Positions 9,571-17,267 of a stretch of DNA of 34,174 nucleotides are shown here, piece by piece (position 1 is the stretch's first letter; every line of letters begins with the position of its first letter). The notes under the pieces are model-generated. The model was not told where the DNA came from. It was given only the letters and a program-made list of their open reading frames with translations, and ran no database searches. The position numbers and the translations under genes are program-made. Source of the DNA: Promethearchaeota archaeon. Its GTDB lineage: Archaea; Asgardarchaeota; Lokiarchaeia; Sigyniarchaeales; SOKP01. Location of the stretch: NCBI GenBank assembly GCA_048938895.1, contig JBHLLU010000024.1, forward strand, positions 1-34,174, read 5' to 3'.

Positions 9571-9654
9571 TTATATTTTTGATTTGTTTTTAATCAGTAT
9601 TGATGATACTATTCCTATAATGCTTAAAATTGTAAGCAAGTGGTATCCAGGGAT
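9571..9654 (-). other. Loki-CTERM/PGF-CTERM-like C-terminal sorting signal
   Basis: IPGYHLLTILSIIGIVSSILIKNKSKI*: motif, hydrophobic helix and basic tail. Confidence 0.75.
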
Positions 9655-12360
9655 TTGTGGTTCAGATGCTTTTGAAACTATTTCCACCATAATTACATGT
9701 TCAGCTTCAATATTTCCTTCATTATCAACAGCTTGATATGTAATAGTATGCCCTCCATATTTATAACTGGATAGTGTGAATGGTCCAATATAATCAAACC
9801 AAGTAGAATCATCAATTTTATAGCGAATCAGGGATATTCCAGACCCTAATCCGTCATCCGCAGTTAAAGTGAATAATGTTGATTTCAGCACCTCATTAGT
9901 ACCGCTATATGGAGTAAAATCAATGGAAGATATAGGTGCTATTGTATCAGTGCGTTCTACTAAAAGGGTTTGAATAATTTCAGTGTTACCAACACTATCA
10001 ATAGCTTGATAAGAAATAAGTATATCTCCGTAAAGATAACTTGCTAGAGTAAATGGTGTGCTATATGTAATCCAGCTAGAATCATTAATTTTATATTGAA
10101 TAAGAGAAACTCCAGAGCCTAATCCATCATCCGCAGTTAGTGTAAAGTCAGTTGATTCATTAACTATATCAATTCCGCTATGTGGGGTAAATTCGATCAA
10201 ACTTATTGGAGCATATGTATCTTTCCAGATGGTAATTTCAGCAAATCCCTCTAGTCCCCAAGTATCATTTGCAAAAAATTGGATGGTAACAGAACCATTA
10301 GTTAATTTATCCCATTCCGTTTGATTAACCATTCCTGATAATAGATTAAAAGTTATGTTTATTCCTCCATTCAGATTATACCATGTAGAATGCAAATTAG
10401 ATTCGGTAATTGAAATTTCAAAATTAGGGGCAACCATTCCAAAGAATTCATTATAATTTGGTGAGATAATAAAAACCTCAGGATAATATAGTGTAGTAAA
10501 GTATCTAATTTCAGATTGATAGGTAATACCCATAGAAAAATTCCATAAGATTTGAATTGTATGAACTCCTTCACTTGGAAAGGGAATTGTAGTATTTCCA
10601 AATATAGTTTTATTACTCGCGCCATCTAAAGAATAACCCAACCAATCAGGGTTTATAATGGTTTCAAAACTCAATAGTAAACCTTCATTAAGATTATCTC
10701 CAACGGTATAACTAGGATCCCATGAATAACCAACAGCATCAATCCACCTCGTTGTTGTGGCTGCATCACCTGTAAATATGTTGAAGGTATCAATCGAAGT
10801 ACCATTATCACGAAAAGGTATTGAGCCTGAACTTATTCCATCTATGATAACTTCATATGTGTATTGGGATAATCCCTGGTATCCACCTGATGTTGATTCA
10901 AAATGGATTCTAAGGTGTTGCCACACATTATCTTGGGATCCAAGAACATTAGGAATTAGTGTATCAACTACTCCATCATAAGAATACCAGTGTTCATTTA
11001 TAAGTCTAATGGACACCCTATTCTCAACTAAATCCGTATCCATGAGTCTAACCATACCTCCATCTGTAGCATCACCAGGACAAAACCAAAATTCTGTCGT
11101 ACCATATGCTTGATCCGTGAAATAATTGTTTAGTCTCGCTTTTGCTCCTCCATTATTGTCATAGACTTCCAGAACATTATAATGTCCATTTTTCTCCGCA
11201 ATGACTTGTGAGCCACAATTAGAGTCTGAAGCAGAATCATCCCAATCAAGAGCATCGCCTCCGATTGCATCGCTCTCAAATCCATATGTCGCAGGGTAAT
11301 ATCCACTCATTGACTGGGAATATGTTTTATTTGTAGGAGTAAATATGTAGATTGGATAAATAGAGAAATACACTTTATTTGAATGAAACTCTTCTCCCAC
11401 TGAATCATTTCCAAAAACCTGAATATTGTGCACTCCATTATTAGGGAAAGGAATTGTTGTATTTCCCACGATAGTTTTATTAGCTAACCCATCTAAAGAA
11501 TACCCTTGCCAATCTGGGCTAAATTGCATCCCATAACTTAGTAGTAAACCTTCATTAAGATTATCTCCAACGGTATAACTAGGATCCCATGAATAACCAA
11601 CAGCATCAATCCACCTCGTTGTTGTGGCTGCATCACCTGTAAATATGTTGAAGGTATCAATCGAAGTACCATTATCACGAAAAGGTATTGAGCCTGAACT
11701 TATTCCATCTATGATAACTTCATATGTGTATTGGGATAATCCCTGGTATCCACCTGATGTTGATTCAAAATGGATTCTAAGGTGTTGCCACACATTATCT
11801 TGGGATCCAAGAACATTAGGAATTAGTGTATCAACTACTCCATCATAAGAATACCAGTGTTCATTTATAAGTCTAATGGACACCCTATTCTCAACTAAAT
11901 CCGTATCCATGAGTCTAACCATACCTCCATCTGTAGCATCACCAGGACAAAACCAAAATTCTGTCGTACCATATGCTTGATCCGTGAAATAATTGTTTAG
12001 TCTCGCTTTTGCTCCTCCATTATTGTCATAGACTTCCAGAACATTATAATGTCCATTTTTCTCCGCAATGACTTGTGAGCCACAATTAGAGTCTGAAGCA
12101 GAATCATCCCAATCAAGAGCATCGCCTCCGATTGCATCGCTCTCAAATCCATATGTCGCAGGGTAATATCCACTCATTGGTTTAACGTAAGTTTTATTTT
12201 CTGGGGTTGATATAGAAATTTCACCAGCATTAGTTTCAGGAATTAAGAATTCTGAATTAGATGTTGTATATAGCCTTGAGTTAAATCCGTTAATAAGAGA
12301 ACAAATTAAAAACAGATTGAGATATAAAAGAAAATATTTGGTTTTCCTATTTAAATTCAT
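9571..12360 (-). CDS. Secreted cell-surface protein: signal peptide, two Ig-like modules each carrying an inserted ~210-aa beta-rich (lectin/LamG-like?) domain, a third Ig-like domain, two OmpL47/Big-like repeats, Loki-CTERM-type anchor
   Basis: Basic and hydrophobic N-terminus; repeated P.NKTY…YSLDG..NKTI.GNTTIPFP..GVH.IQ; DT.APIS…TLTADDGLGSG…YQA.D..GN twice; C-terminal IPGY + TM helix + KNKSKI; many NxS/T sequons. Confidence 0.85.
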   Translation of the reverse strand: MNLNRKTKYFLLYLNLFLICSLINGFNSRLYTTSNSEFLIPETNAGEISISTPENKTYVKPMSGYYPATYGFESDAIGGDALDWDDSASDSNCGSQVIAEKNGHYNVLEVYDNNGGAKARLNNYFTDQAYGTTEFWFCPGDATDGGMVRLMDTDLVENRVSIRLINEHWYSYDGVVDTLIPNVLGSQDNVWQHLRIHFESTSGGYQGLSQYTYEVIIDGISSGSIPFRDNGTSIDTFNIFTGDAATTTRWIDAVGYSWDPSYTVGDNLNEGLLLSYGMQFSPDWQGYSLDGLANKTIVGNTTIPFPNNGVHNIQVFGNDSVGEEFHSNKVYFSIYPIYIFTPTNKTYSQSMSGYYPATYGFESDAIGGDALDWDDSASDSNCGSQVIAEKNGHYNVLEVYDNNGGAKARLNNYFTDQAYGTTEFWFCPGDATDGGMVRLMDTDLVENRVSIRLINEHWYSYDGVVDTLIPNVLGSQDNVWQHLRIHFESTSGGYQGLSQYTYEVIIDGISSGSIPFRDNGTSIDTFNIFTGDAATTTRWIDAVGYSWDPSYTVGDNLNEGLLLSFETIINPDWLGYSLDGASNKTIFGNTTIPFPSEGVHTIQILWNFSMGITYQSEIRYFTTLYYPEVFIISPNYNEFFGMVAPNFEISITESNLHSTWYNLNGGINITFNLLSGMVNQTEWDKLTNGSVTIQFFANDTWGLEGFAEITIWKDTYAPISLIEFTPHSGIDIVNESTDFTLTADDGLGSGVSLIQYKINDSSWITYSTPFTLASYLYGDILISYQAIDSVGNTEIIQTLLVERTDTIAPISSIDFTPYSGTNEVLKSTLFTLTADDGLGSGISLIRYKIDDSTWFDYIGPFTLSSYKYGGHTITYQAVDNEGNIEAEHVIMVEIVSKASEPQIPGYHLLTILSIIGIVSSILIKNKSKI
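9676..10221 (-). repeat. Two diverged tandem ~91-aa OmpL47/Big-like domain repeats (273-nt period)
   Basis: DTYAPIS… starts at 10221 and DTIAPIS… at 9948. They share FTLTADDGLGSG.SLI.YKI.DS.W..Y..PFTL.SY.YG. Confidence 0.85.
10675..11312. repeat. 638-bp direct repeat, copy A
   Basis: Matches 11542-12179 (offset 867) with no mismatch found by eye. Mismatches start immediately outside (10674 a vs 11541 g; 11313 a vs 12180 g). Confidence 0.95.
11542..12179. repeat. 638-bp direct repeat, copy B
   Basis: Identical to 10675-11312. The ORF track also shows identical antisense ORFs at 10757 and 11624. Confidence 0.95.
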
Positions 12361-12584
12361 AATTTATCACATATAGTCAAGATTTTTATCTATAAAGTAA
12401 GATATTCTAACTCCTTTATAAATTCTTTTAAATGAACTTTCAAATTAAAAGTTTTTTATTTAAAAACAGTTTTACACCCTCATTCTTATTATTAAGCCTC
12501 TTTTTATAGAAGAAAATAATCAGAAAATTAATTCTACCACTATAAAAAAAGTTCTGTAAGCATAATTTTTTTAGTAAACATACA

Positions 12585-12592
12585 TTTATATT
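12585..12592 (+). promoter_or_regulatory. Candidate TATA box for the phe leader transcript
   Basis: TTTATATT ~33 nt before the leader ATG; weak evidence in an AT-rich context. Confidence 0.35.
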
Positions 12593-12624
12593 AAAAAGTA
12601 AATATTGATTGAGATGAGATTATA

Positions 12625-12708
12625 ATGGATCTTTCTTATTACGAAATAAATAAAAATTTCAATCAAGTTCAATTTTTTTGTTTTTTCTTTATTCTGCCAA
12701 GGGATTAA
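12625..12708 (+). CDS. Putative Phe-rich leader peptide of pheS-pheT-pheA (MDLSYYEINKNFNQVQFFCFFFILPRD, 27 aa)
   Basis: ATG 12625 to TAA 12706-12708. Six Phe codons, five of them within TTT TTT TGT TTT TTC TTT (12673-12690). The stop codon lies inside the 5' arm of a hairpin, and the ORF ends 200 nt upstream of pheS. Confidence 0.55.
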   Translation: MDLSYYEINKNFNQVQFFCFFFILPRD

Positions 12709-12737
12709 AGATTCAATTTAGAAAGTGATCCCTTGGC
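12696..12737 (+). promoter_or_regulatory. RNA hairpin in the pheS upstream region (candidate attenuator element)
   Basis: GCCAAGGGATTA (12696-12707) pairs with TGATCCCTTGGC (12726-12737): 10 consecutive Watson-Crick pairs plus U-G and A-U. The U-G wobble forms only on the + strand. The stem is GC-rich within a very AT-rich spacer. Confidence 0.7.
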
Positions 12738-12840
12738 TTTGGATATTTTAAAATATTACTAAATCTGATAATTAAGTAAAAATTAAACTTATTAAGTTGT
12801 TCTAATTCAAGATCGGGTAAAATTAAACGATTTTATTCAC

Positions 12841-12854
12841 AAAAAATTTATATA
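12841..12854 (+). promoter_or_regulatory. BRE/TATA-like element proximal to pheS
   Basis: AAAAAA followed by TTTATATA (12847-12854), ~55 nt upstream of the pheS ATG. Confidence 0.5.
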
Positions 12855-12908
12855 CATTAGAGATTTTAAAAATAATAACAAAAGAATAAAGATTAACAAC
12901 TGAAGTTT

Positions 12909-14450
12909 ATGACCATCAAATTAAAAAAACAAACTATCGAAGTTTTAAAGGTGCTTAAGAAAAAGCGATCTAATGTAGTTGCTGCTGATATTGCTGAAGA
13001 AATGGAAATTGATTATATTGTGCTTATGTCCGCGATAAATGAATTAATTGAGCACACTCTAGGTGGATTCAAAGAGGAAGAGCTCTATCAAATTTCTTTA
13101 AATGATGAAGGGAAGAAATATTTGAAAATAGGTTTACCTGAGCGTCAATTATTGAATTTGATGTTAGAAGAGAAGATTAAAGAAATCCCTTTTGAGGAAT
13201 TACTGAAGAAATCAAACTTAAACGAAGATATCTTCTTCATTGGGATCTCAAATTTAAAGAAAAGAAGATGGATAAGTCAAAGTAAAGCTACTGGGGAAAA
13301 TAAAATATTTCTTATTGTAGATGAATTTCCTCAAACCAATTTAGAAAAATTCTTGAAAAGATTTGAAGAAAGGGACACATTAGATTATTCTAAATTATCT
13401 AAAGCTGATGTAAAACTCTTAGATATATTGAATAAAAGGAAATTAATAGATAAAAAGCGTAAAACAAATCGAATATTATACTTGACTGATACAGGAAAAA
13501 GTATTACAGTTTCTAAGATTAAAGAATTAACTCAAGTAAGTAAAATTACCTCTGAGATGCTCAGTTCAGGTACTTGGGAAAAGTATGAATTAAAACCTTT
13601 TGATGTAACTAAACCGGGTCCATTATTAAAAGCGGGAAAAATACACCCTTTGATAAACCTAATTAATGAAATAAGAGAAATTTTCTTATCAATGGGATTT
13701 ACAGAGATAAGAGGTCCAATTATAGAGAGTGCTTTTTACAATTTTGATGCATTATTTCAACCTCAAGATCATCCTGCACGTGAAATGCAAGATACATTTT
13801 ATCTTAATAATCCAGATAAGGCAAGATTACCAGAAAAGGATAGAGTTATGGCAGTAAAGGAAATGCATGAAAATGGGGGAGAATCAGGTTCTACAGGATG
13901 GGACTACAAGTGGGATATTGAAATAGCTAAAAAGACAGTCTTAAGAACTCATACTACAGCTACAACTATGCGTAGATTGGCTGAATTTTATAGAAATAAT
14001 GATAAAGTTCCTGTTAAAGTATTTTGTATTGATCGAGTATTCCGTAATGAAAAAGTTGATAAATCACATCTAGCAGAATTCACCCAAATAGAAGGAATTG
14101 TAATTGATGATAATGTAACTTTATGTGATTTAATTGGTTTATTATCCGAGTTTTATAGAAAAATGGGATTTAAAAAGATTATTACAAGACCCGGATTTTT
14201 CCCTTATACTGAACCATCAATGGAAGTATCTGTATATTATGATAAATTTGGGGAATGGCTAGAAATGGGAGGATCAGGAATCTTTCGTCCCGAAGTGACT
14301 TATCCTTGGGGATTAAAAGAACCAACCCGAGTTTTGGCTTGGGGGCAAGGACTTGAACGAATTGCAATTCCATATTATGGTAGAAAAGATATTAGAGATT
14401 TTTATATCAATCCTTTGAATTGGCTAAGACAACAATCATATTTAAAATAA
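12909..14450 (+). CDS. pheS: Phenylalanine--tRNA ligase alpha subunit (archaeal/eukaryotic type)
   Basis: 513 aa with N-terminal DNA-binding-like domains (GLPE), NFDALFQPQDHPAREMQDTFY, LRTHTT, VFRNE.VD.SHLAEF.Q.EG, FPYTEPS, GGSGIFRPE, LAWGQGLER. Confidence 0.98.
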   Translation: MTIKLKKQTIEVLKVLKKKRSNVVAADIAEEMEIDYIVLMSAINELIEHTLGGFKEEELYQISLNDEGKKYLKIGLPERQLLNLMLEEKIKEIPFEELLKKSNLNEDIFFIGISNLKKRRWISQSKATGENKIFLIVDEFPQTNLEKFLKRFEERDTLDYSKLSKADVKLLDILNKRKLIDKKRKTNRILYLTDTGKSITVSKIKELTQVSKITSEMLSSGTWEKYELKPFDVTKPGPLLKAGKIHPLINLINEIREIFLSMGFTEIRGPIIESAFYNFDALFQPQDHPAREMQDTFYLNNPDKARLPEKDRVMAVKEMHENGGESGSTGWDYKWDIEIAKKTVLRTHTTATTMRRLAEFYRNNDKVPVKVFCIDRVFRNEKVDKSHLAEFTQIEGIVIDDNVTLCDLIGLLSEFYRKMGFKKIITRPGFFPYTEPSMEVSVYYDKFGEWLEMGGSGIFRPEVTYPWGLKEPTRVLAWGQGLERIAIPYYGRKDIRDFYINPLNWLRQQSYLK

Positions 14451-14459
14451 GGTGAGATA

Positions 14460-16142
14460 ATGCCAACAATTGAGTTAAAGGTTGAAAGGTTAGAAAAATT
14501 AGTCGGTAGAAGATTAGATTTAAAGGAATTAGAATATGATCTCCAATGGATTAGCTTAGATTTAGAAGATATTAATGAAGAAGAACAAAAAGTTAAGGTT
14601 GAATATAATCCTAATAGACCGGATTTTTCTAGTCCGGAGGGTATTGCAAGAGCATTAAAAGGGTATTATGAAATTGAGGAGGGCCTTCCATCTTATGAAG
14701 TTCTCTCAGGAGAAACTGAATTAAAAGTAGATCCTATTGTTAACAAAGTACGTCCTTATATAGTCTGTGGAGTCATAAGAGATATTGATTTAGATGAAGA
14801 TGAGGTAGCTACATTAATGAATATTCAAGAACACCTACATTGGGCTGTTGGAAGGGATAGAAAAAAGGTTGCCATTGGTGTTCATGATTTTGATAAAGTT
14901 ACTCCCCCATATAGATATACAGCAGTAAAACCAGATGCTGTTAGTTTTGTCCCATTACATGGAGACGGATATCCTATGAATCTAGAAGAAATTTTATTAC
15001 TACACGATAAAGGCATTGAGTATGCTCATATTTTAGAAGGAAAGGAAGTATACCCTATAATTTTTGATAAAAATGATGAAGTACTATCTTTTCCACCTGT
15101 TATTAATGGAGTTCTTACAACAGTAACGGATGATACTAAAAATTTGTTTTTAGATTTAACAGGAACAGATTTAAAAGCAGTCAATTTAGCATTAAACATA
15201 TTATCGACCACATTAATGGATATGGGAGCAAAATTGGAAACGGTAAAAGTAATTTATGAAGGAAAATATGAAATGATTACACCTGATTTGAGCCCAAAAA
15301 AATGGATGGTTCATAACGATTATATAAATAACATAATTGGTTTAAATTTAACAATTTCAGAGATGATAAGATGTTTTAAAAAAGTGAGATTGGATGCTGT
15401 TGAATCGAAAAAGAAAGGGTATTTAGATATACTAGTTCCTGCCTATAGAGGGGATATAATGCATCCCATTGATTTTACTGAGGAATGTGCCATTGGGTAT
15501 GGCTATATAAATTTACCTCTTACAATTCGAGAAGGCGGAATTGGTCAATACCATCCCATACAAGATTATTCAAATCGCATAAGAAAAATATTGATTGGGG
15601 GGGGATATCTAGAAGTGATTAATTTTATTCTAACAAATTCAGAGAAACAATTTTTGTATATGAATCAAGATTCTGAGGCAGCTAATAATATTGAGATCGC
15701 TAATCCTGTCTCTAAAGAATTCGATACAACCAGAACGAAAATACTTCCCAAATTGATGGATAACTTACTTTTAAACAGATCTGAAGAAAAGCCAATTAGA
15801 ATTTTCGAAGTGGGTGATGTGATATTACTTTCACCTCAAGAAGAAACAGGAACTAAAAGAGAAGTACATTTATCTGCAGTATCTTACCATGAAAATGCAA
15901 ATTATACCGAAATAAAATCAACATTAGATTATATTATGACCTCTCTTGGGTATTATAATGATTATGAGGTTAAACCCGGAAAAAATCCAAGTTATATCGA
16001 TGGTCGGTACGGAATAATTTATTTTAGAAATAAGATAATTGGTGAAATTGGTGAAATCCAACCAAAAGTTTTATTAAATTTTAGATTAGAATTTCCTGTT
16101 TCGGCATTTGAACTAAATATCGAACCATTTTTGAATTTTTAA
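14460..16142 (+). CDS. pheT: Phenylalanine--tRNA ligase beta subunit (archaeal/eukaryotic type)
   Basis: MPTI, NPNRPD..S.EGIARAL, GRDRKKVAIGVHD, VLSFPPVING, VPAYRGDIMH..D..EE.AIGYGY, IANP; SD GGTGA at 14451. Confidence 0.98.
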   Translation: MPTIELKVERLEKLVGRRLDLKELEYDLQWISLDLEDINEEEQKVKVEYNPNRPDFSSPEGIARALKGYYEIEEGLPSYEVLSGETELKVDPIVNKVRPYIVCGVIRDIDLDEDEVATLMNIQEHLHWAVGRDRKKVAIGVHDFDKVTPPYRYTAVKPDAVSFVPLHGDGYPMNLEEILLLHDKGIEYAHILEGKEVYPIIFDKNDEVLSFPPVINGVLTTVTDDTKNLFLDLTGTDLKAVNLALNILSTTLMDMGAKLETVKVIYEGKYEMITPDLSPKKWMVHNDYINNIIGLNLTISEMIRCFKKVRLDAVESKKKGYLDILVPAYRGDIMHPIDFTEECAIGYGYINLPLTIREGGIGQYHPIQDYSNRIRKILIGGGYLEVINFILTNSEKQFLYMNQDSEAANNIEIANPVSKEFDTTRTKILPKLMDNLLLNRSEEKPIRIFEVGDVILLSPQEETGTKREVHLSAVSYHENANYTEIKSTLDYIMTSLGYYNDYEVKPGKNPSYIDGRYGIIYFRNKIIGEIGEIQPKVLLNFRLEFPVSAFELNIEPFLNF

Positions 16143-16163: not shown

Positions 16164-17267
16164 ATGAACAATCAGACTAGTTTGAAGAAGGAGTTAGAAA
16201 ATCTAAGAGAAAATATTAATAAAATCGATGATAAGATTATTGAACTTTTAAATCACCGTGGAAAAATTGTAAGTAAAATAGGTGATATTAAAAACAAATT
16301 AAAATTGAAAGTTCATCAACCTCAGAGAGAAAAAGAAATATTTGAAAGGCTAAAACGTAAATCGGAAGTTTTCAATGGTTCAAGTATCGAAGCAATATGG
16401 AAAGAAATAATCAGCGCTAGTAAACTCATTCAAGGGATGATCAATAAAATAGGATACCTAGGACCTGAAGGAACTTTTACTCATCAAGCAGCTTTAGAAT
16501 ATTTTCCTAAAGCAGGATCAGAATTTTTTCCCACTACAAATTCACTAGAAATATTTGAGAAATTGGAAAAGGGAATTATTGATTTTGGGGTAATTCCTAT
16601 TGAAAATAGCCTTCAAGGGACAGTTAGAGATACACTTGATTTGTTAATTGAAAAAGAAATGTTTATCTATGGGGAAATCGAGTTAAGAATTGTCCAAAAT
16701 CTAATCTCTGTTGAGAATTCAGATTTATCAAAAATTCAAAATATTATTTCACACCCGCAAGCTTTTGCTCAAACTAGGATATGGCTTAAAGAGAATTTAC
16801 CCAAAGTTAATCTAGTCAGTGTGAATTCAACAGCTGAAGCGATACGTAGAGTTCAAGAATTAAATGATAATTCCTATGCTGCAATTGGACCTGAATTCTC
16901 CAGTAAACTCTATAATTTGAAGATTTTAAGTTCAAATATCGAAGATAATCCATTGAATTATACAAGATTTTTGATTATTTCAAAAAAAGAAAATAGATTT
17001 AAAGAAGGAAAACTAAAAACTTCAGTAATTTTTGTTACAAAACATACTCCAGGAGCGCTATATGCCGTATTGAAAATTTATGCTGATGCGAATATTAATT
17101 TATTAAAAATTGAATCTCGTCCGAGGAGAAGAGGACGTTGGGAGTATATTTTTTTAATGGATTTTGAGGGAGATAAAGAAGATCCTAAGATTAAGAACAT
17201 TTTTGAAAATATGAGTAATAATGTGATATGGTACAAAATATTAGGAACTTATTCTATGGCGAAATAG
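16164..17267 (+). CDS. pheA: Bifunctional chorismate mutase / prephenate dehydratase with ACT domain (P-protein)
   Basis: AroQ-type LR..I..ID..I..LL..R…K…RE; PDT motifs YLGPEGTFT, PIENS, SHPQA and NYTRF; ACT motif INL.KIESRP. Confidence 0.96.
   Translation: MNNQTSLKKELENLRENINKIDDKIIELLNHRGKIVSKIGDIKNKLKLKVHQPQREKEIFERLKRKSEVFNGSSIEAIWKEIISASKLIQGMINKIGYLGPEGTFTHQAALEYFPKAGSEFFPTTNSLEIFEKLEKGIIDFGVIPIENSLQGTVRDTLDLLIEKEMFIYGEIELRIVQNLISVENSDLSKIQNIISHPQAFAQTRIWLKENLPKVNLVSVNSTAEAIRRVQELNDNSYAAIGPEFSSKLYNLKILSSNIEDNPLNYTRFLIISKKENRFKEGKLKTSVIFVTKHTPGALYAVLKIYADANINLLKIESRPRRRGRWEYIFLMDFEGDKEDPKIKNIFENMSNNVIWYKILGTYSMAK

What the first reader, a model, noticed from the sequence alone, without database searches (positions are those of the whole stretch)
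12614..12760. Candidate ribosome-mediated phenylalanine attenuator (Phe-rich leader peptide + hairpin) upstream of pheS-pheT-pheA in an Asgard archaeon
Seen: a 27-codon ORF (12625-12708, MDLSYYEINKNFNQVQFFCFFFILPRD*) with five Phe codons in six positions, one more Phe and a Tyr-Tyr pair. Its last codons and stop form the 5' arm of a 12-bp GC-rich hairpin (12696-12737) whose U-G wobble favours the + strand. The next three genes are Phe-tRNA synthetase alpha/beta and chorismate mutase/prephenate dehydratase. Established: E. coli pheST (pheM) and pheA (pheL) are controlled by Phe-rich leader peptides, and archaea couple transcription and translation; to my knowledge such attenuators are hardly characterised in archaea. 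Inference: a ribosome reaching the stop would melt the hairpin, whereas stalling on the first Phe codons would let it form. The hairpin would therefore be the 'on' structure, possibly shielding against factor-dependent (FttA/aCPSF1) termination; it has only UUU after it, unlike an intrinsic terminator. A 3-codon ATG AGA TTA TAA overlaps the leader ATG (TAATG). Caveats: T-runs give Phe codons by chance in AT-rich DNA, and a second TATA-like element (12847) lies downstream.
Basis: partly seen in the sequence, partly recalled or inferred. Interest (0 to 1): 0.85.

Follow-up and report, generated by a model that had tools for sequence, protein, structure and literature searches.

The report
Phenylalanine leader peptide before archaeal pheST
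A short, phenylalanine-rich upstream reading frame that ends inside a conserved RNA hairpin sits before the Phe-tRNA synthetase genes across a family of Asgard archaea, and similar leaders precede Leu, Ile and Trp genes, so these archaea appear to sense amino-acid supply with translating ribosomes, a mechanism so far described only in bacteria.

Summary
The ORF at 12625-12708 and the hairpin at 12696-12737 are exactly as described.

A covariance model of this element finds one copy in most genomes of the family: 79 of 101 genomes, and 96 of 121 in the order-wide draw, against 0 of 19 genomes from the other families of the order. Wherever enough flank was fetched, the copy lies 145-238 nt upstream of pheS.

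Across 44 sequences from 11 genera:
- The reading frame stays open: 43 of 44 have at least 20 open codons, against 13 and 4 of 44 in the other two frames.
- The stop codon persists but switches between TAA, TAG and TGA.
- The codon that begins 8 nt before the hairpin is TTT in 44 of 44.
- The hairpin shows compensatory changes and G-U pairs that are valid only on the + strand.
- A second helix (P1) pairs the region upstream of the start codon with the codons just before the Phe cluster.

The same genome and family carry cognate leaders before leuS, leuA, ileS, cimA, trpD and a trpB-like gene.

This is best read as a ribosome-mediated Phe sensor. The output step and its polarity remain unproven. 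No RNA data were available.

The parts
12564..12574 (+). Candidate distal promoter element (A/T-rich, TATA-like) for the leader transcript.
   Evidence: This block is conserved in the 18-sequence genus alignment. It also recurs in genera g16 and g17. Its role as a promoter is inferred, because no transcript data were available.
12605..12615 (+). P1 5' strand (segment U), just upstream of the leader start codon.
   Evidence: RNAduplex pairs this stretch with 12656-12666 in the window. On the genus alignment, helix 1 has 82% of cells paired and 6 of 14 pairs with compensatory change.
12625..12708 (+). Leader ORF of 27 codons plus TAA.
   Evidence: The sequence is. The homologous frame is open for at least 20 codons in 43 of 44 family sequences. 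An ATG is present in 38 of 44. Stop codons are TAA 35, TAG 5 and TGA 4.
12656..12666 (+). P1 3' strand (segment R2), inside the ORF and directly before the Phe cluster.
   Evidence: The helix core covaries between clades: TCTTGA:TCAAGA, GCTTGA:TCAAGC, ACTTGA:TCAAGT and GCTTT:AAAGC.
12673..12690 (+). Phe codon cluster (F F C F F F). The last two Phe codons are 12685-12690.
   Evidence: The codon that starts 8 nt before the stem is TTT in 44 of 44 sequences. The codon before it is Phe in 36 of 44. There are 3-6 Phe in the last 14 codons in 43 of 44.
12696..12737 (+). Hairpin P2. The 5' arm (12696-12707) consists of the last codons plus the first two bases (TA) of the stop codon; the last A (12708) opens the loop. 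The 3' arm is 12726-12737.
   Evidence: One search gives the fold. It is the only consensus structure RNAalifold finds in the 340 nt upstream of pheS. In the genus, 94.1% of cells are paired. Over 51 family rows, 93.5% are paired and 5 of 12 pairs show compensatory change. The G-U pairs fit only the + strand.
12738..12744 (+). Conserved motif directly 3' of P2. The window reads TTTGGAT; the family consensus is TGCGGAT. Its function is unexplained.
   Evidence: Alignments. A T-run of at least 4 follows within 30 nt in 30 of 43 sequences, against 42.5% in background.
12801..12818 (+). Conserved 18-nt element just upstream of the proximal promoter. It is unique in this genome and its role is unknown.
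   Evidence: It is conserved across the family and occurs in two copies in genera g13 and g14. No second copy with fewer than 3 mismatches exists in the window's own genome.
12838..12855 (+). BRE/TATA-like proximal promoter candidate for pheS.
   Evidence: It is almost invariant in the 17 genus sequences and conserved in all 44 family sequences. Its function as a promoter is inferred.
12909..14450 (+). pheS (Phe-tRNA ligase alpha subunit).
   Evidence: Pfam PF01409 at 4e-87. NCBIfam NF003210 at 1.1e-160.
14460..16142 (+). pheT (Phe-tRNA ligase beta subunit).
   Evidence: Pfam PF17759, B5 and B3_4 domains.
16164..17267 (+). pheA (chorismate mutase / prephenate dehydratase with an ACT domain).
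   Evidence: Pfam PDT, CM_2 and ACT domains. NCBIfam NF008865. It lies about 3.5 kb downstream of the leader or pheS in 21 of the 28 family genomes that have a pheA match.

Best explanation
The segment 12605-12744 is a cis-acting, ribosome-mediated sensor of charged tRNA-Phe for the pheS-pheT(-pheA) operon.

A short transcript, probably starting near 12590-12600, is translated into a 27-residue leader. Its only conserved feature is a Phe codon cluster placed between two RNA helices:
- P1 pairs the region upstream of the AUG with the codons just before the cluster.
- P2 has a 5' arm made of the last four codons plus the stop.

Shown: the ORF, its frame, its stop, the Phe codons at fixed spacing, both helices, linkage to pheS across a family, and cognate leaders on other amino-acid genes.

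Inferred:
- When Phe-tRNA is scarce, a ribosome waits on the two invariant Phe codons that start 11 and 8 nt before P2. From recalled toeprint and footprint figures, its leading edge reaches about 12 nt past the A-site codon. It would therefore cover the outer, invariant G+C-rich base pairs of P2 and keep the hairpin from forming.
- When Phe-tRNA is plentiful, the ribosome reaches the stop codon and leaves, and P2 folds.
- I take folded P2 to be the 'off' signal (premature termination or destabilisation of the leader transcript) and masked P2 to allow read-through into pheST-pheA. This read-through would add to basal transcription from the conserved proximal promoter.

The effector step is unknown. 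It could be intrinsic termination, FttA-dependent termination or RNA cleavage.

The confidence given (0.45) is for this statement including the polarity. That the element is a cis-acting Phe-sensing leader of either polarity I put at about 0.7.
For: Conservation and linkage:
- One copy per genome in 79 of 101 family genomes and in 11 of 13 genera. Over the order: f1 96 of 121, other families 0 of 19.
- pheS lay within the fetched flank in 27 of 29 other-genus loci. In the 25 of those 27 where the motif search placed the hairpin, it starts 145-238 nt upstream of the pheS ATG. The other two were placed by the alignment and the covariance model.
- The element stays with pheS where the upstream neighbour differs (window, L020, L021).

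Coding signature:
- Frame 0 is open for at least 20 codons in 43 of 44 sequences, against 13 and 4 of 44 in the other frames. The stop is kept but switches between TAA, TAG and TGA. The N-terminal half is variable, and the window's one gap in that stretch is 6 nt, a multiple of three.

Sensor codons:
- TTT lies 8 nt before P2 in 44 of 44. The preceding codon is Phe in 36 of 44.

RNA structure:
- P2: 93.5% of cells paired, 5 pairs compensatory, covariation above all 500 shuffles.
- P1 and P2 together on the genus alignment: 8 compensatory pairs, 0 of 500 shuffles as high.
- P1 self-duplex energy is -15.5 kcal/mol, against -10.8 for cross-genus pairings.

Genome-wide uniqueness:
- It is the only Phe-rich small ORF with a stop-in-hairpin among the 173 candidates.

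Generality, which supports an amino-acid sensing role:
- Leu-run leaders before leuS in 8 of 8 loci and before leuA in 22 of 26.
- Ile-run leaders before ileS in 4 of 4 close orthologues, and before cimA in the window's own genome.
- Trp-rich leaders before trpD in 14 of 15 loci and before a trpB-like gene in 18 of 30.
- Gene identities come from NCBIfam.

Polarity:
- In most leaders of every class, the predicted structure starts no more than 11 nt after the last cognate codon: 10 of 14, 14 of 17, 22 of 22, 7 of 8 and 4 of 4.
Against: - No transcript, ribosome or Phe-response data exist for this element, so translation and regulation are inferred from sequence alone.
- A strongly conserved BRE/TATA-like element lies between the leader and pheS (12838-12855), so pheS may not depend on read-through.
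- P2 is not a canonical terminator. The bacterial-type scan finds none. A T-run of at least 4 within 30 nt follows P2 in only 30 of 43 sequences, against 42.5% in background. From recall, archaeal RNA polymerase is not known to need hairpins for termination.
- RNAalifold found no conserved alternative (antiterminator) pairing.
- Upstream Phe codons (positions -11 to -9 from the stop) are too far from P2 for a ribosome stalled there to mask it. Severe starvation could therefore give the opposite outcome.
- A ribosome sitting at the stop codon also masks P2, so the model needs fast ribosome release or a polymerase pause.
- In genus g19 the hairpin is retained but the ORF is short or uncertain.
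- Relatives are not independent, so counts across genomes overstate the support.
Confidence: 0.45

Rival explanations
1. This rival has the same Phe-sensing leader but the opposite polarity. P2 is the 'on' structure. It forms when the ribosome stalls on the early Phe codons, and it is melted when an unhindered ribosome reaches the stop codon. The unfolded RNA then allows termination, for example by FttA/aCPSF1.
For: - The stop codon lies in the 5' arm or loop in 44 of 44 Phe leaders and in the Trp leaders. A terminating ribosome must therefore open the hairpin.
- Most leaders have further Phe codons 27-33 nt before the stop. Under strong starvation a ribosome would stall there first and leave P2 free.
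- P2 lacks a consistent U-tract, so it does not look like a terminator.
Against: - The only invariant sensor codons are the last two, 8 and 11 nt from the stem. Some leaders have no earlier Phe codon at all (L010, L073).
- In the Leu and Ile leaders the cognate run extends to the last sense codon, and in the Trp leaders the last Trp codon lies within the arm. Under this model those codons would signal 'plenty' when starved.
- No evidence was obtained that a hairpin blocks FttA.
Confidence: 0.25
2. The leader is an independent small gene. It would encode a hydrophobic micro-protein, or a small RNA with a 3' stabilising hairpin, that merely neighbours pheS. It would either not control pheS in cis or act in trans.
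For: - It has its own promoter-like element, and a conserved promoter-like element separates it from pheS.
- The frame is conserved.
- Leader-derived RNAs and leader peptides that act in trans are described in bacteria. I saw this only in the abstracts of PMC6614838 and PMC7298713.
Against: - Apart from the Phe codons, the C-terminal residues change exactly as the RNA pairs change: LPRE, PPRE, LPSEY, PPSN, SPRE. The N-terminal half is unconserved. This is not the pattern of a functional protein.
- The amino acid enriched in the leader matches the downstream gene in seven gene classes, where about 0.1-0.2 matches would be expected by chance. This points to cis sensing.
- In leuA leaders only about 30 nt separate the hairpin from the gene, which leaves no room for a second promoter.
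Confidence: 0.12
3. The stretch is not translated. It would be a conserved T-rich non-coding element, such as a protein-binding palindrome, a terminator of the upstream genes or a promoter architecture, and the ORF would be a by-product of T-rich DNA.
For: - T-rich intergenic DNA often gives Phe-rich ORFs: 173 of 3443 small ORFs qualify.
- In most genus members two co-directional genes end about 220 nt upstream of the hairpin.
Against: - The frame-specific absence of stop codons (43 of 44, against 13 and 4 of 44), start codons at the homologous position and stop-codon switching all argue for translation.
- G-U pairs that would be A-C mismatches on the other strand argue for RNA and against a DNA palindrome.
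- The element persists where the upstream genes are replaced by a divergent gene.
Confidence: 0.03

Closest known systems
Classical ribosome-mediated transcription attenuators of bacterial amino-acid operons and aaRS genes (E. coli pheST/pheA, trp, leu, his leaders; also reported upstream of trpS and leuS in Streptomyces, per a passage read in PMC1262725)
   Same: It is a short translated leader with a cluster of cognate codons near its end. The end of the leader ORF lies inside RNA secondary structure. It sits in cis upstream of the cognate tRNA ligase and biosynthetic genes. One organism carries a set of leaders for several amino acids.
   Different: - The host is an Asgard archaeon. Four full-text searches surfaced no archaeal case.
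- No three-hairpin terminator/antiterminator switch was found.
- There is no canonical hairpin-plus-U-tract terminator.
- One helix (P1) uses sequence upstream of the start codon.
- A conserved promoter-like element lies between the leader and pheS.
- There is no similarity to any Rfam family, which would include the bacterial leader families if they are in release 15.
Direct ribosome occlusion of a hairpin: the pyrBI leader and ermC/cat-type translational attenuation (recalled, not searched)
   Same: A single hairpin whose 5' side is covered by a ribosome in the leader ORF. Ribosome position, rather than an alternative RNA fold, decides the outcome.
   Different: In ermC-type systems the hairpin hides the ribosome-binding site of the next gene. 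Here pheS starts about 170 nt beyond P2, and leuA has its own TAGGT motif about 9 nt before its ATG and outside the hairpin. The pyrBI leader senses UTP through polymerase pausing, not a charged tRNA.
TnaC-type arrest peptides that control factor-dependent termination (abstract of PMC8429421 seen; the rest recalled)
   Same: The decision is taken with the ribosome at or near the leader's stop codon, and termination could depend on a factor.
   Different: TnaC works through a conserved nascent peptide and free Trp. Here the C-terminal residues vary with the RNA pairs, and what is conserved is a cluster of cognate codons. This points to sensing of charged tRNA.
T-box leaders of Firmicutes (recalled; mentioned in PMC1262725)
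   Same: The regulon logic matches: each aaRS or biosynthetic gene carries its own leader specific for the cognate amino acid.
   Different: T-boxes bind uncharged tRNA directly and are not translated. Here the sensor is an ORF.

Membership tests
Classical leader-peptide transcription attenuator | A short leader ORF with clustered codons for the regulating amino acid | tested here: met
   In the window, 5 of 6 consecutive codons are Phe. Across the family, 43 of 44 sequences have 3-6 Phe in the last 14 codons. TTT lies 8 nt before P2 in 44 of 44.
Classical leader-peptide transcription attenuator | The leader is translated | tested here: inconclusive
   The sequence signature fits translation: the frame is open in 43 of 44 sequences, against 13 and 4 of 44 in the other frames, and the stop codon switches type but persists. 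No ribosome or peptide data exist, and no RNA run was listed.
Classical leader-peptide transcription attenuator | Located in cis upstream of genes for the cognate amino acid | tested here: met
   pheS, pheT and pheA lie downstream. pheS lay within the fetched flank in 27 of 29 other-genus loci. The hairpin was placed 145-238 nt upstream of the pheS ATG in 25 of those 27.
Classical leader-peptide transcription attenuator | Mutually exclusive terminator and antiterminator hairpins (1:2, 2:3, 3:4) | tested here: not met
   RNAalifold predicts only P2. P1 was found by hand, but I could find no conserved pairing between a P1 strand and a P2 strand.
Classical leader-peptide transcription attenuator | An intrinsic terminator (G+C-rich stem followed directly by a U-tract) ends the leader | tested here: not met
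   The scan found 0 terminator-like sites in 12361-12960. A T-run of at least 4 within 30 nt follows P2 in 30 of 43 sequences, against 42.5% in background.
Classical leader-peptide transcription attenuator | The structural genes are transcribed through the leader, with no intervening promoter | tested here: inconclusive
   A conserved BRE/TATA-like element lies at 12838-12855. Whether it fires, and whether read-through contributes, cannot be told without RNA data.
Classical leader-peptide transcription attenuator | Downstream expression rises when charged cognate tRNA falls | not testable with these tools
   This requires an experiment.
Rfam bacterial leader families (Phe, Leu, Trp and similar; family names recalled) | A match to the covariance model | tested here: not met
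   cmscan of 12000-13300 at E <= 10 returned only chance-level snoRNA and riboswitch hits, all below their gathering scores.
ermC/cat-type translational attenuation | The hairpin sequesters the ribosome-binding site or start codon of the regulated gene | tested here: not met
   P2 ends at 12737 and the pheS ATG is at 12909. For leuA, a TAGGT motif about 9 nt before the ATG lies outside the hairpin.
Arrest-peptide (TnaC-like) control | A conserved nascent-peptide sequence is required for stalling | tested here: not met
   The peptide tail varies (LPRE, PPRE, LPRD, LPSEY, PPSN, SPRE, LPRN) in step with RNA pairing, and the N-terminal half is unconserved.

The most novel reading that the evidence does not exclude
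A whole family of Asgard (Promethearchaeia) archaea runs a regulon of translated, amino-acid-specific leader ORFs:
- Phe before pheST-pheA.
- Leu before leuS and leuA.
- Ile before ileS and cimA.
- Trp before trpD and a trpB-like gene.

Each leader ends in or next to a hairpin. This would be the first ribosome-mediated attenuation system in Archaea. It uses a simpler architecture than the bacterial one: a single stop-proximal hairpin, with no terminator/antiterminator switch. It would therefore have to act through archaeal termination or RNA-decay machinery, and it would be direct genetic evidence that transcription-translation coupling is exploited for regulation in the closest prokaryotic relatives of eukaryotes.
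Probability: 0.6. Interest if true: 0.92.

Novelty: new variant of a known kind. Interest (0 to 1): 0.82.

Why it matters
To my knowledge, leader-peptide attenuation is treated as a bacterial mechanism. Four full-text searches turned up no archaeal example.

If these leaders work as the sequence evidence suggests, three things follow:
- Archaea sense tRNA charging with the ribosome.
- The position of a ribosome on nascent RNA can be read out by the archaeal transcription or RNA-decay apparatus, which has no known hairpin-dependent terminator.
- There is now a set of seven natural, mutually comparable switches with which to test transcription-translation coupling and FttA-type termination in Asgard archaea.

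The leaders also flag which paralogue of a duplicated ligase gene is likely to be the regulated one. Of the two LeuRS-like and two IleRS-like genes, only one of each carries a leader.

Tried and rejected
- **Repeat or mobile element:** rejected. BLAST of 12614-12760 against the window's own genome gave only low-complexity A/T hits. The covariance model found a single copy.
- **Known RNA family:** none.
- **Expression data:** The look-up of sequencing runs listed 12 DNA or metagenome holders and no RNA holder. Read laying was therefore not used, and nothing can be said about expression.
- **Leader in the other families of the order:**
  - The upstream regions of 11 loci (L027, L029-L038) showed no tail like the family's. 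L028 had no upstream flank.
  - In seven f2 loci (L031-L034, L036-L038) a co-directional gene ends about 25-160 nt before the aligned start of pheS.
  - The model hit 0 of 19 genomes outside f1. A diverged version could still be missed.
- **Genus g19:** 0 of 5 model hits. The loci show a diverged hairpin with an uncertain short ORF, so I did not count them as leaders.
- **Antiterminator search:** I looked by eye and with RNAduplex for pairing of U or R2 with either P2 arm, for a partner of the TGCGGA motif, and for pairing of the 18-nt element 12801-12818 with U or P2.
  - I found only 4-7 bp matches without covariation.
  - An apparent GAGGA/CCAGC correlation is confined to one clade (L014, L015, L020, L022).
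- **Mini-hairpin alternative:** a mini-hairpin (TTTATTC with GAATAAA) that could compete with P2 covaries in only one clade and is contradicted in about five sequences, so I dropped it.
- **K-turn reading of the P2 base:** rejected, because there is no GA on the non-bulged strand.
- **SD sequestration in leuA leaders:** rejected, because leuA has its own TAGGT motif outside the hairpin.
- **Operator regulon:** the 18-nt element has no second copy in the genome.
- **Other tRNA ligase genes:** no cognate leader was seen upstream of trpS, a tyrS-like gene, valS, thrS, the second IleRS-like gene, the second LeuRS-like gene or a 685-aa ligase-like ORF. Only the window's own genome was checked.
- **Weak searches:**
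  - The long-protein searches for leuS and ileS recovered few orthologues (8 and 4 close ones of 41 genomes), so those conservation counts rest on small samples.
  - The MFE-based hairpin starts are noisy.
  - Supplements of papers were not consulted.
  - For papers I saw only search listings and abstract starts, plus passages of PMC2965389 (which mentions archaea only in its references) and PMC1262725.
- **First submission:** one search was returned for a missing confidence field. This report is the same text with that field added.
Full report
**What is in the window**

- An ATG at 12625 opens a 27-codon frame, MDLSYYEINKNFNQVQFFCFFFILPRD, which ends with TAA at 12706-12708.
- Codons 17-22 (12673-12690) read F F C F F F.
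- The last codons and the stop codon form the 5' arm (12696-12707) of a 12-bp hairpin. Its 3' arm is 12726-12737.
- RNAfold gives -31 kcal/mol for 12614-12760 on the + strand, z = -2.84. The - strand gives z = -1.83.
- Downstream lie pheS, pheT and a chorismate mutase/prephenate dehydratase/ACT pheA.
- The upstream neighbour (9571-12360, - strand, 929 aa) is divergent and has no Pfam match.
- The stretch matches no Rfam family and is not repeated in the genome.

**Is it more than chance?**

Phe richness alone is not unusual.
- I defined crude genes as ORFs of at least 100 aa, which left 2409 intergenic regions.
- Those regions hold 3443 ATG ORFs of 12-60 codons. Of these, 173 carry at least 4 Phe in their last 14 codons.
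- A stop codon inside a stem of at least 8 bp with at least 4 G-C pairs is rare: 4 of 2000 sampled small ORFs.
- Among the 173 Phe-rich ORFs, only the one before pheS has such a stop-in-hairpin.

**Conservation in the genus**

pheS was found in 35 of 41 related genomes. The set of 18 same-genus loci includes the window's own.
- One locus (L024) reads N over the region. The other 17 all carry the hairpin and an ATG ORF of 26-40 codons ending ...FF[I/N/D]LPR[D/E]. The stop lies at the same place in 15. It lies one codon earlier in L017 and three codons later in L025.
- The N-terminal half is not conserved. Between the start codon and the Phe cluster the window differs from the other genus sequences by one 6-nt gap, a multiple of three.
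- In most genus members two co-directional genes precede the element. In the window, L020 and L021 the upstream gene is divergent. The element therefore goes with pheS and not with its upstream neighbour.
- RNAalifold on the 340 nt before pheS predicts only this hairpin.
- 94.1% of cells are paired. GC-to-AU and AU-to-UA exchanges occur, as do several G-U pairs that would be A-C mismatches on the other strand.

**Conservation in the family**

- A covariance model of the 92-nt core finds one copy, with two exceptions on duplicated contigs, in 79 of 101 genomes of the family and in 11 of 13 genera.
- In an order-wide draw it hits 96 of 121 genomes of this family and 0 of 19 from three other families.
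- I fetched 29 loci from other genera. pheS lay in the flank of 27, and the other two were cut by contig ends. A motif search placed the hairpin 145-238 nt upstream of the pheS ATG in 25 of those 27. In L064 and L074 it was placed by the alignment and the model.
- Over 44 sequences (17 plus 27), the frame defined by the invariant CCA codon is open for at least 20 codons in 43. The other two frames manage this in 13 and 4. The median open lengths are 30, 15 and 4 codons.
- An ATG is present in 38. Five of the remaining six have TTG at the aligned start position.
- The stop codon is TAA in 35, TAG in 5 and TGA in 4.
- The codon that begins 8 nt before the stem is TTT in 44 of 44. The codon before it is Phe in 36 of 44. 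Further Phe codons lie upstream in most sequences but not all.
- Over 51 model-aligned rows, 93.5% of P2 cells pair and 5 of 12 pairs show changes on both sides. Three of those rows are reverse-strand matches that I did not remove.
- Record titles of relatives call them Promethearchaeota or Promethearchaeia MAGs, that is, Asgard archaea.

**A second helix**

It is complementary to the codons just before the Phe cluster.
- In the window, 12605-12615 pairs with 12656-12666.
- On the genus alignment this helix (P1) has 82% of cells paired and 6 of 14 pairs with compensatory change. P1 and P2 together exceed all 500 shuffles in covariation.
- Between genera the helix core changes as a pair: TCTTGA:TCAAGA, GCTTGA:TCAAGC, ACTTGA:TCAAGT, GCTTT:AAAGC. 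Genera g16 and g17 add an AATCGTA:TACGATT segment.
- Own-partner duplexes average -15.5 kcal/mol, against -10.8 for partners taken from other genera.
- The mini-ORF itself is not conserved. Many relatives have a different three-codon ORF there, and in L016, L021 and L025 that ATG reads through into the leader.

**Other leaders**

Scanning the window's own genome for small ORFs with amino-acid runs gave these hits:
- A Leu-run ORF 95 nt before leuA.
- A Leu-rich ORF before leuS.
- Ile-rich ORFs before ileS and before citramalate synthase.
- Trp-rich ORFs, for example MKLATTPEWCWQWPWRWR, before a trpB-like gene and before trpD.

Gene identities come from NCBIfam.

Conservation in the family:

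| Gene | Loci with a cognate leader |
|---|---|
| trpD | 14 of 15 |
| trpB-like | 18 of 30 |
| leuA | 22 of 26 |
| leuS | 8 of 8 |
| ileS (orthologues at >= 70% identity) | 4 of 4 |

The cimA leader was not checked in relatives.

- In each class a hairpin begins at the stop codon or overlaps it. Examples are GGCGT..ACGCC around the Trp leader stops and GCGAAACAAATCC..GGATTTGTTCGC after the leuS leader stop.
- Seven cognate matches arose among roughly 90 run-rich candidate ORFs, in a genome of about 3900 genes. By chance I would expect about 0.1-0.2.
- No such leader was seen before trpS, a tyrS-like gene, valS, thrS, the second IleRS-like gene, the second LeuRS-like gene or a 685-aa ligase-like ORF.

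**How it probably works**

Shown by sequence comparison: a translated-looking leader, Phe codons at fixed spacing to a conserved + strand hairpin that contains the stop codon, a second helix, and strict linkage to pheS. pheA lies about 3.5 kb downstream in 21 of the 28 genomes that have a pheA match, and three genus members have the leader and pheS but no pheA match.

Inferred: the ribosome's position on the leader, set by the supply of Phe-tRNA, decides whether P2 folds.

Two polarities are possible.
- I favour the reverse, at roughly 2:1. The reason is that the conserved sensor codons are the last two. They start 11 and 8 nt before the stem.
- In the Leu, Ile and Trp leaders the cognate run likewise abuts or overlaps the structure. 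The predicted structured domain starts no more than 11 nt after the last cognate codon in 10 of 14, 14 of 17, 22 of 22, 7 of 8 and 4 of 4 leaders (these MFE-based estimates are noisy).
- From recalled toeprint and footprint figures, a ribosome's leading edge lies about 12 nt beyond the first base of the A-site codon. A ribosome waiting on 12685-12690 would therefore cover 12696-12700, the invariant outer pairs of P2.
- Starvation would thus keep P2 open. With Phe plentiful, the ribosome terminates and leaves, and P2 folds.

What folded P2 does is unknown.
- It is not a bacterial-type terminator.
- T-runs after it are only weakly enriched: 30 of 43 sequences, against 42.5% in background.
- From recall, archaeal polymerases terminate at oligo-T without hairpins, and FttA/aCPSF1 is the known termination factor.

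**Problems for the reading**

- A nearly invariant BRE/TATA-like element (12838-12855) lies between the leader and pheS. It is preceded by an 18-nt element that is unique in the genome (12801-12818). Read-through can therefore only add to, or interfere with, a proximal promoter. In the leuA leaders there is no room for such a promoter.
- No alternative antiterminator pairing was found.
- The conserved TGCGGA after P2 and the role of P1 remain unexplained.
- No RNA data could be obtained.
- Genomes of one family are not independent samples.

**Comparison with what is known, and novelty**

The closest known systems are the bacterial leader-peptide attenuators, including those on pheST and, per PMC1262725 (passage read), on trpS and leuS of Streptomyces.

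The element shares their sensor logic. It fails three defining structural tests: the three-hairpin switch, the intrinsic terminator and the absence of an intervening promoter. I therefore describe it as working like an attenuator and do not file it as a member of that family.

Four full-text searches (listings and abstract starts only) surfaced no archaeal leader-peptide attenuator. I rate it a new variant of a known kind, of high interest, pending transcript and ribosome data.

Noticed in passing
G000 C104:9173-9450 (-), locus L097/L129: A Leu-run leader (...LGLCLNELTLDLLLLL*) is followed at once by a long hairpin, 95 nt before leuA. It is conserved in 22 of 26 family loci. The hairpin arms are CU-rich on the 5' side and GA-rich on the 3' side.
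   Followed up: partly
G000 C125:17568-17796 (+), locus L187/L188: A Leu-rich leader (...LLLDELLTVLLL*) plus a hairpin (GCGA.ACAAATC..GATTTGT.CGC) lies before leuS, in 8 of 8 loci recovered. A second LeuRS-like gene (C51:35221-38011) has no such leader.
   Followed up: partly
G000 C61:17619-17825 (-) and C75:6505-6677 (-), loci L185 and L186: Ile-rich leaders lie before ileS (4 of 4 close orthologues) and before citramalate synthase (window's own genome only). In three ileS leaders, two overlapping alternative hairpins share a GAAGTGAA segment. A second IleRS-like gene lies on the window's contig beyond the window (C146:40900-44047) and has no leader.
   Followed up: partly
G000 C53:28183-28405 (-) and C67:9640-9844 (+), loci L096 and L095: Trp-rich leaders (W at alternate positions, for example ..WRWQWPWRWR*) have the stop codon inside a small G+C hairpin followed by a conserved CATTGG. 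They lie before trpD (14 of 15 loci) and a TrpB-like gene (18 of 30). trpD and leuA were not found in the four other genus members searched.
   Followed up: partly
Locus L155 and relatives, about 40-90 nt before the trpB-like start: A conserved block GCATTAAT...ATTGAATTCCAAT...TAATGATACACAT contains a near-palindrome. It may be an operator or an RNA hairpin, and it is separate from the Trp leader.
   Followed up: no
Window 12801-12818: An 18-nt element is conserved family-wide just upstream of the pheS proximal BRE/TATA and is duplicated in genera g13 and g14. It is unique in this genome, which is unexpected for a transcription-factor site of a regulon.
   Followed up: partly
Window 12738-12744 and relatives: The motif TGCGGA(T) directly after P2 is conserved without any partner I could find. 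It resembles a stretch near the 3' end of this genome's own 16S rRNA, which is probably chance.
   Followed up: partly
Window 9571-12360 (-): A 929-aa ORF divergent from the leader has no Pfam match at E <= 0.001. It replaces the two small co-directional genes found upstream of the leader in most genus members.
   Followed up: no
Locus L024 (G006): A run of N (withheld bases) covers exactly the leader and hairpin region of this relative. Several genus genomes of high completeness gave neither a pheS match nor a model hit (G003, G005, G011, G013, G016). Those misses may therefore be masking rather than true absence.
   Followed up: no
Loci L091-L094 (genus g19): A diverged version of the element lies upstream of pheS. 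The hairpin CCCAAGAGA..TCTCTTGGG is kept, but the reading frame is short (for example MGVIFSLASLFVI*), ends just before the stem, and lacks an ATG in two of four genomes.
   Followed up: partly
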